A DNA stretch of 64,000 bases from the NCBI RefSeq assembly GCF_054482525.1, contig NZ_CM137006.1; one strand, given 5' to 3'. The translations under genes and the position numbers were made by a program. Positions within the stretch are counted from its first letter, which is position 1. Every line of letters begins with the position of its first letter. The notes under the pieces were generated by a model, which saw only the letters and a list, made by a program, of their open reading frames with translations, was not told the DNA's origin and did no database searches. Below, one piece after another: positions 10,266 through 13,589 of this stretch.

Positions 10266-10326
10266 TAACACGTTGATTGATAAGGAGTCAAAAGACTCCT
10301 TTGAGACAGGTGACAAATGTAAAATT

Positions 10327-10355
10327 GCCTGATGCGCTGCGCTTATCAGGCCTAC
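10327..10355. repeat. REP/PU element downstream of livF
   Basis: gcctgatgcgctgcgcttatcaggcctac. Confidence 0.75.
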
Positions 10356-10388
10356 TGGGTGAGTTGCAATATATTGAATTTGCACGAT

Positions 10389-10413
10389 CTTGTAGGCCGG
10401 ATAAGGCGTTTAC
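10389..10413. repeat. left half of a REP/PU split by the IS insertion (ends in TAC target duplication)
   Basis: gtaggccggataaggcgtttac immediately before the IS left end; right half gccgcatccggc follows the IS. Confidence 0.8.
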
Positions 10414-11321
<908 letters not shown>

Positions 11322-11845
11322 TCCAGGAGATGCTCCTGCATGGCTTTCAGATATGCATTTTCTGCGCGAAGATAACGCAGCTCATTCTTCATCTCTTCCG
11401 GCGTCATGTTTGCCTCGTTTTCATGGGTATCATCAGAACGGGTCATGCTTTTCTCCTTCCTGCGCCTGATAAAGGCCTCATTACCAGATTTGCGGTAGCC
11501 TTTTATCCAGTTTTTAACCGTGTTGTGGCTGGGAATGTTAAACCGGGCAGCTACCCGGGGTAGAGACTCAGAATGCCCGAGAGCATAAAGAACCACGCAA
11601 AGTTTATCTTCAGGAGAATAGCTACGCTTGTGTCTGCAATCCAGTGCCCGAGGACCGTGAAGAAGAAAAAGATTAATCCAGTGTGAGAGGCTGGTGTGAG
11701 AAAGTTGAAAGAGTTTTGCCGTAGAAATGATGCCTGCATGACCAGCCAGGTAGTGATTTACAGCGGCAAGTTTTACTTCAAATGAATGTTTCATAAACTG
11801 CACCTTCAGATGTCAGATTATGTCCAACATTTGGGGTGCAGTTCA

Positions 11846-11868
11846 TACGCCGCATCCGGCATGAAACG
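11846..11868. repeat. right half of the REP/PU split by the IS (starts with TAC duplication)
   Basis: tacgccgcatccggcatgaaacg. Confidence 0.8.
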
Positions 11869-11950
11869 ATGAGCAATCTGTAGAGTTTGATTCAGACCTT
11901 CTATTTTTCCCGCTTATCCGTGCCCCATCTCCCATTTTCCCTCACACGTA

Positions 11951-11979
11951 CCGTCACCGCCTTGTCATCTTTCTGACAC
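11951..11979 (+). promoter_or_regulatory. Pho-box-like direct repeats upstream of ugpB (ccgtcac / ttgtcat / ctgacac)
   Basis: CTGTCAT-type repeats at 11-bp spacing; the ugp operon is known to be PhoB-regulated. Confidence 0.55.
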
Positions 11980-12097
11980 CTTACTATCTTACAAATGTAA
12001 CAAAAAAGTTATTTTTCTGTAATTCGAGCATGTCATGTTACCCCGCGAGCATAAAACGCGTGAATTCGCGCATTCGGTACAACAAGAGAGATAAACG

Positions 12098-13414: not shown

Positions 13415-13420
13415 TTCTCT

Positions 13421-13567
13421 TACCCTCACCCTAACCCTCTCCCAAAGGGAGAGGGGACCGATCGGCGTGGTATCCAGGTGCCGTGTCGGTTTGCAACTTC
13501 GCTCGGTGGGAAAGTATGCACCGCCTTTCTCCCTCGCCCCTCTGGGGAGAGGGCCGGGGTGAGGGGA
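13421..13567. repeat. GC-rich nested inverted-repeat element between ugpB and ugpA (boxC/RSA-like intergenic repeat)
   Basis: ccctcaccc-ccctctccc-aaa-gggagaggg at the left edge mirrored by cccctctggggagaggg-ggggtgaggg at the right edge. Confidence 0.5.
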
Positions 13568-13589
13568 ACACAACACGAAGAGTTTAACT

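What the first reader, a model, noticed from the sequence alone, without database searches (positions are those of the whole stretch)
11306..11322. Canonical -1 programmed frameshift heptamer A_AAA_AAG joining orfA to orfB
In the orfA frame the codons read gaA AAA AAG (LEKKR). Slipping by -1 there continues directly into the orfB frame (..APGAGEKTKVIRSLR.. and on to the DDE domain). This is the hallmark OrfAB transframe transposase arrangement and suggests the element is intact.
Basis: seen in the sequence. Interest (0 to 1): 0.3.

Follow-up and report, generated by a model that had tools for sequence, protein, structure and literature searches.

The report
IS1397 transposase programmed frameshift site
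This is the slippery A-AAA-AAG site where ribosomes are expected to slip back one base and fuse the two reading frames of the E. coli insertion sequence IS1397 into its 449-residue transposase. It is real and intact, but ordinary, because public genomes already annotate it as a programmed frameshift.

Summary
On the minus strand, the heptamer A_AAA_AAG (window 11321-11315) lies in phase with orfA (…LLEKKRQE…). The -1 frame runs from it without a stop for 291 codons, through a complete DDE domain, to TAA at 10448-10446.

The element is a complete 1432-bp IS1397 (IS3 family), window 10414-11845. It has 25-nt terminal inverted repeats and a 3-bp target duplication (TAC). It sits in the loop of a REP palindrome between livF and ugpB, which is the known IS1397 target.

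The element is 100% identical to copies in many E. coli genomes. RefSeq annotates these as "IS1397 family transposase, programmed frameshift". My fused 449-aa product is an exact match to NCBI proteins, so the feature is already known.

Added detail:
- In an eight-member IS1397 clade, GGAAAAAAAGCGCC is invariant and synonymous-site conservation peaks at the site.
- An SD-like GGAG lies 12 nt upstream in 7 of 8 members.
- A modest hairpin (-13.9 kcal/mol) starts 3 nt downstream. It is compatible with the clade but has no covariation support.
- About 60 IS150-like relatives carry the heptamer 9 codons further 5' (AYLKK), followed by a 10-bp long-range stem with strong covariation. IS1397 lacks that stem.

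The efficiency of the shift is untested.

The parts
10414..11845 (-). Complete IS1397 copy, 1432 bp
   Evidence: 100% identical over its full length to RefSeq-annotated IS1397 copies. The boundaries come from the inverted repeats and from the K-12 empty site.
11821..11845 (-). Left terminal inverted repeat (IRL), TGAACTGCACCCCAAATGTTGGACA
   Evidence: Inverted pair I1, 25 nt, 84% complementary.
10414..10438 (-). Right terminal inverted repeat (IRR)
10411..10413 (.). Target-site duplication TAC, copy 1, in the loop of a REP palindrome
   Evidence: The K-12 empty site reads GCGTTTAC|GCCGCATCC with a single TAC. The REP arms lie at 10396-10409 and 11847-11860 (pair I6).
11846..11848 (.). Target-site duplication TAC, copy 2
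11273..11794 (-). orfA, 173 aa including the HTH and leucine-zipper-like region, from ATG 11794 to TGA 11275-11273
   Evidence: 99% identical to an E. coli protein cluster of 2287 members.
11333..11336 (-). [quoted passage not shown]
   Evidence: It lies within the 6-17 nt interval used by Sharma et al. 2014 (PMC4066793). It is present at the same spacing in 7 of 8 IS1397-clade members and 40 of 63 IS150-like relatives. The Q and E codons CAG GAG are identical in every member that keeps those residues.
11315..11321 (-). Slippery heptamer A_AAA_AAG, the -1 frameshift site
   Evidence: GGAAAAAAAGCGCC is invariant in 8 clade members that share only 51-86% protein identity.
11301..11311 (-). 5' arm (CAGGAGCUGGA) of the predicted downstream hairpin; it starts 3 nt after the heptamer
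   Evidence: Predicted at every window length tested, about -13.9 kcal/mol. 82% of cells are paired in the clade against 29-44% in slid controls, but there is no covariation.
11274..11284 (-). 3' arm (UCCGGAGCCUG) of the predicted hairpin; it overlaps the orfA stop codon
10446..11315 (-). orfB frame as read after the shift: 289 codons plus stop, with HTH_21 and the DDE catalytic core
   Evidence: Open frame. Domains rve, rve_2 and HTH_21. D295 lies at 10913-10911, D355 at 10733-10731 and E391 at 10625-10623. The spacings are 60 and 36 residues, with K at E+7. The frame has no start codon upstream of GTG 11168.

Best explanation
The site is the programmed -1 ribosomal frameshift signal of an intact IS1397 (IS3 family, IS150-like subgroup).

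Most ribosomes that translate orfA from ATG 11794 read through GAA AAA AAG and terminate at TGA 11275-11273. This gives the 173-aa OrfA. A fraction slip back one base while the two tRNA-Lys decode AAA AAG, re-pairing on A AA.A AA. These ribosomes continue in the orfB frame to TAA 10448-10446. The result is the 449-aa OrfAB transposase: the N-terminal DNA-binding region of OrfA fused to the HTH_21 and DDE core.

Shown directly from sequence and comparison:
- the heptamer, its phase and the open frames;
- the end-to-end family match of the fused product;
- nucleotide-level conservation of the site.

Inferred:
- that slippage is ribosomal;
- that the GGAG 12 nt upstream (pairing with 16S rRNA) and the hairpin starting 3 nt downstream raise its frequency;
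- that the OrfA:OrfAB ratio limits transposition, as in other IS3 members.
For: - Heptamer and frames. The heptamer is in phase and the -1 frame is open for 291 codons. The chance expectation is 0.006-0.013.
- Fused product. The 449-aa fusion hits NF033516 transpos_IS3 over 1-369/369 at E 8e-116 and the expected Pfam domains.
- Public annotation. RefSeq annotates identical DNA as an IS1397 transposase with a programmed frameshift. My junction (…LLEKK|APGAGEK…) exactly matches NCBI proteins on 71 contigs.
- orfB needs the shift. The orfB frame has no start codon for 49 codons after the junction, so that stretch can only be made by the shift.
- Conservation. In 8 clade members (median 63% protein identity), GGAAAAAAAGCGCC is invariant. 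Synonymous-codon identity peaks at residues 148-175, at 0.87 against a background of 0.51. This is the best of 232 windows. The 15 informative codons just upstream, where only one frame is translated, give 0.77, with P<1e-5 by resampling.
- Stimulators. The SD-like GGAG and the hairpin both meet the published empirical criteria for frameshift stimulators (PMC4066793).
- Motif strength. A_AAA_AAG is among the most efficient motifs in E. coli. Together with A_AAA_AAA it accounts for 72% of the heptamers in IS1 and IS3 family elements (PMC4066793).
Against: - No experiment on IS1397 frameshifting could be read; the original papers are not in the library.
- The downstream hairpin has no covariation support. 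Its spacer of 3 nt is at the short end of the accepted range. The 131-nt region folds no better than shuffled sequence (z -0.8).
- Two other local helices use the same repeated C(A/U)GGAG / CUCCUG segments and are kept about as well. The actual RNA conformation is therefore undetermined.
- Conservation downstream of the heptamer is confounded, because both frames code there.
Confidence: 0.86

Rival explanations
1. OrfAB is made by transcriptional slippage rather than by ribosomal slippage. RNA polymerase adds one extra A in the run of seven A (window 11322-11316). Normal translation of that A8 mRNA then gives the same protein (…E K K A P G…).
For: - The run is exactly seven A.
- In the IS3-family element IS1447, seven A were reported sufficient for transcriptional slippage, next to an RNA stem-loop (PMC6211511).
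- IS1397 has a small hairpin, CAGGAG-CAU-CUCCUG, just 5' of the run (-8.0 kcal/mol). It is 81% kept in the clade.
- The protein product would be identical, so the annotation cannot discriminate.
Against: - The run is A7 followed by G in all 8 clade members and is never longer. The same paper states that nine A or T is the generally accepted minimum.
- The heptamer is in the phase that ribosomal slippage requires.
- A GGAG at a fixed 12-nt spacing is conserved. This matters to the ribosome, not to the polymerase.
- A_AAA_AAG is a highly efficient ribosomal shift motif in E. coli.
- The upstream hairpin shows no covariation.
Confidence: 0.07
2. The shift happens at the second A-run, 21 nt downstream (GAG AAA AAA CGA, window 11302-11291), rather than at A_AAA_AAG. 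The fusion would be in the same frame but with the linker …KKRQELEKK(T)K….
For: - It lies inside the 109-nt overlap and is A-rich.
- Slippage of the A-site tRNA-Lys alone on A_AAA is conceivable.
- The segment GAGAAAAA is also conserved in the clade.
Against: - In the orfA phase it reads G_AAA_AAA, so the P-site tRNA could not re-pair fully. It is not an X_XXY_YYZ heptamer in phase.
- One clade member, L096, reads GAGACAAAAC there, which breaks the run.
- NCBI's curated junction is at the first site.
- It lies in the loop of the predicted hairpin and has no structure 3' of it at a suitable distance.
Confidence: 0.03
3. The copy is inert. The two ORFs and the heptamer are a fossil of an IS that no longer expresses a fused transposase in this genome.
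For: - Only 1707 of the 3485 E. coli genomes with IS1397 matches hold a near-complete copy, so many places are remnants.
- This insertion is fixed in a small lineage of about 10 genomes.
- No sigma-70-like promoter was picked up by the simple scan on the minus strand in or near IRL.
Against: - This copy has no stop, indel or substitution relative to copies found identically in dozens of unrelated genomes, typically 5-8 places per genome among the 25 best-matching genomes listed.
- The inverted repeats, the duplication and the DDE triad are all intact.
- A truly decayed relative (L099: A8 run, premature stop, split orfB) looks quite different.
- From memory, not from a paper I could read here: IS1397 was shown to transpose into REPs in E. 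coli K-12 (Clement et al. 1999, J Bacteriol 181:6929).
Confidence: 0.04

Closest known systems
IS1397 itself (E. coli; IS3 family; inserts into REP/palindromic units)
   Same: - 100% nucleotide identity over 1432 bp to RefSeq-annotated IS1397 copies.
- The same programmed-frameshift CDS of 449 aa.
- Insertion in a REP loop with a 3-bp duplication, the target behaviour summarised for IS1397 in PMC1525189.
   Different: Nothing in the element itself differs. Only the insertion site (the livF-ugpB spacer) is particular: it is shared with about 10 of 5426 complete E. coli genomes, including PCN033.
IS150 and IS150-like elements (the frameshift signal studied by Vogele et al. 1991, cited in PMC4066793)
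   Same: - Same family and domain order.
- Same A_AAA_AAG heptamer in the C-terminal coiled-coil region of OrfA.
- Same GGAG 12 nt upstream in 40 of 63 relatives.
- 45-57% protein identity.
   Different: - In about 60 relatives the heptamer is in the codons Y-L-K-K (AYLKKL). In IS1397 that position reads CTG AAA GCC (Y-L-K-A), and the heptamer is 9 codons (27 nt) further 3' at L-E-K-K.
- The relatives have a 10-bp long-range stem. It starts 6-7 nt after the heptamer and closes just after the orfA stop. It is 97.3% paired, 5 pairs show compensatory changes, and 0 of 500 shuffles reach the observed value.
- IS1397 has no equivalent of that stem. It has only a shorter local hairpin without covariation.
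dnaX (E. coli DNA polymerase III tau/gamma) -1 frameshift signal
   Same: A_AAA_AAG heptamer with an upstream SD-like element about 10-12 nt away and a downstream hairpin. This three-part architecture is described in PMC4066793 and known from the literature.
   Different: - In dnaX the shift leads to early termination (gamma), not to a long fusion.
- The dnaX hairpin is strong and experimentally proven. The IS1397 hairpin is modest and unproven.
IS911 / IS3 frameshift signals
   Same: OrfA, OrfB and OrfAB organisation, a -1 shift on an A-rich motif, and stimulators on one or both sides (PMC4066793).
   Different: - From memory: IS911 uses a branched structure and IS3 a pseudoknot with an A_AAG tetramer.
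- No pseudoknot or branched structure was found here. No Rfam family matches the region.

Membership tests
IS3 family insertion sequence | Two consecutive, partly overlapping ORFs, with orfB in the -1 frame relative to orfA | tested here: met
   orfA spans 11794-11273. The orfB frame is open from 11384 to 10446. The overlap is 109 nt.
IS3 family insertion sequence | The fused product matches the IS3 transposase profile and carries a DDE (rve) core with K/R seven residues after E | tested here: met
   NF033516 at 387 bits against a cut-off of 160, covering 1-369/369. rve and rve_2 domains. D295, D355 and E391 with spacings of 60 and 36, and K398.
IS3 family insertion sequence | Terminal inverted repeats that begin with 5'-TG and a 3-4 bp target duplication | tested here: met
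   Inverted repeats of 25 nt starting TGAAC… at both ends. TAC is duplicated relative to the K-12 empty site.
IS1397 (named element) | Near-identity of DNA to the named element | tested here: met
   100% over 1432 bp to many records annotated IS1397. The ISfinder reference sequence itself was not available.
IS1397 (named element) | Insertion into the central part of a REP / palindromic unit | tested here: met
   The flanks GCCGGATAAGGCGTTTAC and TACGCCGCATCCGGC are the two halves of a single REP that is intact in K-12. This target behaviour is summarised in PMC1525189.
Programmed -1 ribosomal frameshift signal (criteria of Sharma et al. 2014, PMC4066793) | X_XXZ_ZZN motif, in phase, in the overlap of two ORFs and conserved among homologues | tested here: met
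   A_AAA_AAG is in phase and invariant in 8 of 8 clade members. Synonymous-site conservation peaks at the site.
Programmed -1 ribosomal frameshift signal (criteria of Sharma et al. 2014, PMC4066793) | [quoted passage not shown] | tested here: met
   GGAG at 12 nt in 7 of 8. Criteria are quoted.
Programmed -1 ribosomal frameshift signal (criteria of Sharma et al. 2014, PMC4066793) | Hairpin that starts 4-10 nt after the motif, opens with G-C/C-G plus at least 3 further pairs, and has dG of at least 7.6 kcal/mol | tested here: inconclusive
   The IS1397 hairpin starts at the 4th nt after the motif (the edge of the range) with C-G, A-U, G-C, G-C, at -13.9 kcal/mol. In the clade only the outer 4 pairs are kept, and there is no covariation.
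Programmed -1 ribosomal frameshift signal | Demonstrated production of a trans-frame protein at this site | not testable with these tools
   This needs a reporter assay or mass spectrometry. The original IS1397 papers could not be read.
IS150-type frameshift cassette (heptamer at AYLKK plus long-range stem closing after the orfA stop) | Heptamer in the Y-L-K-K codons, with a 10-bp stem GCCUUrGUUCA…UGAAyUrAGGC that starts 6-7 nt downstream | tested here: not met
   IS1397 reads TAT CTG AAA GCC at that position, and the heptamer is 27 nt further 3'. The stem is proven by covariation in 33 relatives but is absent from the IS1397 clade.

The most novel reading that the evidence does not exclude
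In the IS1397 clade (IS1397, a Pantoea plasmid element, an Erwinia element and five metagenomic relatives), the whole upstream module GGAG-N11-A_AAA_AAG sits 27 nt further 3' than in the IS150-like majority. The strongly covarying long-range stem-loop of those relatives has been given up.

Frameshifting in this REP-targeting lineage would then rest on the heptamer, the SD-like element and at most a short local hairpin. That may set a different, probably lower, OrfAB:OrfA ratio.

The displacement itself is directly observed. What is uncertain is whether it is undescribed and whether it changes frameshift efficiency.
Probability: 0.3. Interest if true: 0.3.

Novelty: already known. Interest (0 to 1): 0.12.

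Why it matters
It matters little beyond correct annotation. It confirms that this window carries a complete, probably active IS1397 whose transposase depends on recoding. Gene callers will therefore split it into two ORFs unless the frameshift is modelled.

The comparative by-product is of modest interest to people who study recoding. It gives a clean natural example of a frameshift site that has moved within an overlap window, keeping the SD-like spacer but losing the ancestral-type stem-loop. It also gives a well-supported covariation model for the IS150-type stimulatory stem.

Tried and rejected
- Original papers. I tried to read the IS1397 papers (PMC94167, PMC95333, PMC169884). They are not held, so experimental statements about IS1397 rest on secondary sources (PMC1525189) or on memory.
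- Rfam. A permissive scan of 10300-12000 found no frameshift-element family, only sub-threshold REP-related hits.
- Genome scan. Clade members had to be found through an OrfA protein search plus contig look-ups.
- Ancestral stem. I considered that the IS150-type stem is retained in IS1397, with its 5' arm upstream of the new heptamer. An upstream segment can pair with the same 3' segment (78% of cells). However, it is not at the homologous codons, shows no covariation, and would be unwound before the ribosome reaches the heptamer. Rejected as a stimulator.
- Duplication origin. I considered that the new heptamer arose by a 21-nt duplication (LEKKRQE / LEKKRKS). The gap-free alignment with relatives (…QEKEK… against …LEKKR…) makes point mutation in an already A-rich Glu/Lys stretch the simpler account. 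This was not tested further.
- Indexing slip. The first hairpin count for the upstream helix was mis-indexed and was repeated correctly.
- Thermodynamic significance.

Full report
**Observation.** The feature lies on the minus strand. Reading the reverse complement of window 11366-11260 gives …GCA TAT CTG AAA GCC ATG CAG GAG CAT CTC CTG GAA AAA AAG CGC CAG GAG CTG GAG AAA AAA CGA AAG TCA TCC GGA GCC TGA. This is the C-terminus of a 173-aa ORF (…AYLKAMQEHLLEKKRQELEKKRKSSGA*) that starts at ATG 11794. The heptamer A_AAA_AAG therefore occupies 11321-11315 and is in the X_XXY_YYZ phase of that ORF. Translation in the -1 frame from 11321 gives KKAPGAGEKTKVIRSLRCGH… and runs 291 codons without a stop to TAA at 10448-10446. 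The two frames overlap over 109 nt, and this is the only in-phase slippery heptamer in the overlap. An in-phase A_AAA_AAG in 36 codons is expected 0.006 times from the window's own k-mer frequency. It occurs in 1.3% of codon shuffles of orfA. Only the predicted size needs correction: the fusion has 160 + 289 = 449 residues.

**What the element is.** The ORF pair lies inside a 1432-bp unit (10414-11845) bounded by 25-nt inverted repeats that begin TGAACTG…. This unit is 100% identical over its full length to sequences in many complete E. coli genomes. The 449-aa protein I built by slipping at A_AAA_AAG is an exact match to NCBI proteins of that name seen on 71 contigs, so the public annotation uses the same junction. 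The fusion matches the NCBIfam IS3-transposase model from its first to its last position (E 8e-116). It also matches HTH_28, HTH_21, rve and rve_2 in Pfam. The catalytic residues are D295, D355 and E391, with spacings of 60 and 36 residues and a lysine seven residues after E.

**Insertion site.** Alignment with E. coli K-12 shows the empty site GCGTTTAC|GCCGCATCC in the loop of a REP palindrome between livF and ugpB. The IS is flanked by a duplicated TAC (REP arms). Insertion into REPs is the reported hallmark of IS1397 (PMC1525189). This particular insertion is shared by about ten of 5426 complete genomes, among them strain PCN033 at 100% identity. Matches to IS1397 occur in 3485 genomes, but near-complete copies occur in only 1707.

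**Is the site functional?** No experiment could be consulted, because the original IS1397 papers are not in the library. I therefore used comparison. A protein search with OrfA, followed by contig look-ups, gave seven relatives with 53-59% OrfA identity. A tblastn search of plasmids added a Pantoea element. Seven of these eight carry both frames intact. Together with IS1397 they form an eight-member set with median 63% identity of the fused protein.
- In all eight, GGAAAAAAAGCGCC is invariant.
- Among codons for conserved residues, pairwise codon identity averages 0.51 across the gene. It rises to 0.87 in the window of residues 151-171, which is the best of 232 windows, and all the top windows centre on the site.
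- The 15 informative codons immediately upstream of the slip, where only orfA is translated, average 0.77 (resampling P<1e-5). This argues for selection on the RNA or DNA sequence itself.
- The orfB frame has no start codon between the upstream stop and GTG 11168, so its first 49 codons can only be expressed through the shift.
- The eighth relative (L099) has an A8 run, a premature stop and a split orfB. It shows what real decay looks like.

**Stimulators.** Sharma et al. 2014 (PMC4066793) give empirical criteria. [quoted passage not shown] The other is a hairpin that starts 4-10 nt after the motif, opens with G-C or C-G plus at least three more pairs, and has at least 7.6 kcal/mol.
- SD-like element. 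IS1397 has GGAG (11336-11333) 12 nt before the second base. Seven of eight clade members have it at that exact spacing. The Q and E codons that form it are CAG GAG in every member that keeps those residues.
- Downstream hairpin. CAGGAGCUGGA (11311-11301) can pair with UCCGGAGCCUG (11284-11274, overlapping the orfA stop) to give nine pairs around a tandem A.G/G.A. RNAfold finds this hairpin at every window length from 45 to 120 nt, at about -13.9 kcal/mol. It starts at the fourth nucleotide after the motif, which is the edge of the accepted range.
- Support for the hairpin in the clade. 82% of cells pair, against 29-44% in slid controls. The shuffling control is not exceeded, and only the outer four pairs, made of doubly coding and nearly invariant sequence, are kept. 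RNAalifold gives a covariation term of essentially zero.
- Competing helices. The region contains three copies of C(A/U)GGAG and its complement CUCCUG, so other helices are possible. One is a hairpin just upstream (-8.0 kcal/mol). Another is a perfect 7-bp helix that encloses the A-run (-10.1 kcal/mol). A third pairs an upstream segment with the same 3' arm. Each is kept in 75-81% of cells without covariation.
- Overall. The 131-nt region is not more stable than shuffled sequence (z -0.8). I conclude that the SD-like element is reasonably supported and that the downstream hairpin is plausible but unproven.

**Comparison with relatives.** The plasmid search and the genome scan gave about 70 two-frame relatives at 38-57% identity.
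- Heptamer position. In about 60 of them the in-phase A_AAA_AAG (or A_AAA_AAA) lies in the codons for Y-L-K-K of the motif AYLKKL. In IS1397 and its clade that position reads CTG AAA GCC (Y-L-K-A). The heptamer is nine codons (27 nt) further 3', at L-E-K-K. The linker between KK and the conserved L-R of the orfB frame is correspondingly 13 residues instead of 22.
- SD-like spacing. GGAG is found 12 nt upstream in 40 of 63 of those relatives as well. The spacing of SD-like element to heptamer is therefore the same, although the module sits elsewhere.
- Stem-loop. The IS150-like relatives have a 10-bp stem that starts 6-7 nt after the heptamer and closes just after the orfA stop. It appears in nearly every individual fold. 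In a 33-sequence alignment it is 97.3% paired, five pairs show compensatory changes, and none of 500 shuffles reaches the observed values. This is presumably the stem-loop known for IS150 (Vogele et al. 1991, cited in PMC4066793). The IS1397 clade has nothing equivalent.
- Direction of change. The tree was not rooted, so I describe a displacement and not a direction of change.

**Rivals.**
- Transcriptional slippage. Adding one A in the A7 run would give an identical protein. Seven A sufficed in IS1447 (PMC6211511). Against it: the run is A7G in all eight members and never longer, nine is the usual minimum, the heptamer is in the ribosomal phase, and a ribosome-relevant GGAG is conserved. I give this rival 0.07.
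- Second A-run. A shift at GAG AAA AAA CGA is out of phase for tandem slippage, and the run is broken in one clade member. I give it 0.03.
- Inert fossil copy. This is contradicted by perfect identity to widespread multi-copy sequences and by intact ends and catalytic residues. I give it 0.04.

**Verdict.** The finding is correct, and the interpretation (a -1 programmed frameshift that joins orfA and orfB of an intact IS3-family element) is supported. The feature is already known and annotated.
- identification of the element as IS1397 in its characteristic REP target;
- exact coordinates for all parts;
- comparative evidence for selection on the site;
- support for an SD-like stimulator;
- a negative result on covariation for the hairpin;
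- the observation that the IS1397 lineage carries the frameshift module at a different place from its IS150-like relatives and lacks their proven stem-loop.

Noticed in passing
window 10335-10413 and 11846-11860: The livF-ugpB spacer holds a BIME-like pair of REP palindromes. IS1397 splits the distal one in its loop, and the REP is intact in K-12. The region gives sub-threshold Rfam hits to the REP-derived sRNA families ES036 and naRNA4.
   Followed up: partly
window 13415-13575 (ugpB-ugpA spacer): There are two GC-rich segments in inverted orientation: CCCTCACCCTAACCCTCTCCCAAAGGGAGAGGGGAC and CCCTCGCCCCTCTGGGGAGAGGGCCGGGGTGAGGGG. Each is itself palindromic. They look like a class of enterobacterial intergenic repeat.
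   Followed up: no
window 11338-11306 (minus strand): The A-run is embedded in repeated C(A/U)GGAG / CUCCUG segments. One helix is the hairpin CAGGAG-CAU-CUCCUG (11338-11324, -8.0 kcal/mol). Another is a perfect 7-bp helix, CUCCUGG (11329-11323) with CCAGGAG (11312-11306), that puts the heptamer in its loop (-10.1 kcal/mol). Both are kept in 75-81% of clade cells without covariation. Their role is unknown.
   Followed up: partly
L005-L092 (alignment A3): IS150-like relatives share a long-range 10-bp stem, GCCUUrGUUCA…UGAAyUrAGGC, that starts 6-7 nt after A_AAA_AAG and closes just after the orfA stop. It has strong covariation: 97.3% paired, 5 compensatory pairs, 0 of 500 shuffles. No Rfam family matched the corresponding region of IS1397. 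The relatives themselves were not scanned.
   Followed up: yes
L013, L014, L017, L053, L056 (Pseudomonas spp.): These relatives, at 38-43% identity, appear to encode the whole transposase in one uninterrupted ORF of 1380-1434 nt, so no frameshift is needed. The AYLKK motif was not found in them.
   Followed up: no
L074:~1 kb and L085 (Pseudomonas endophytica / P. saliphila): At the IS150-type position these read CTA AAG GAG. This is an in-phase A_AAG tetramer rather than a heptamer.
   Followed up: partly
L099:1764-1880 (metagenome contig): This is a decayed member of the IS1397 clade. The run is A8 (GGAAAAAAAACGCC), orfA ends prematurely, and orfB is split into fragments.
   Followed up: partly
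E. coli genome collection: IS1397-like DNA occurs in 3485 of 5426 complete genomes, but only 1707 hold a copy that covers at least 80% of the element. Almost all places are chromosomal (7605 against 7 on plasmids). This fits a REP-restricted target.
   Followed up: no
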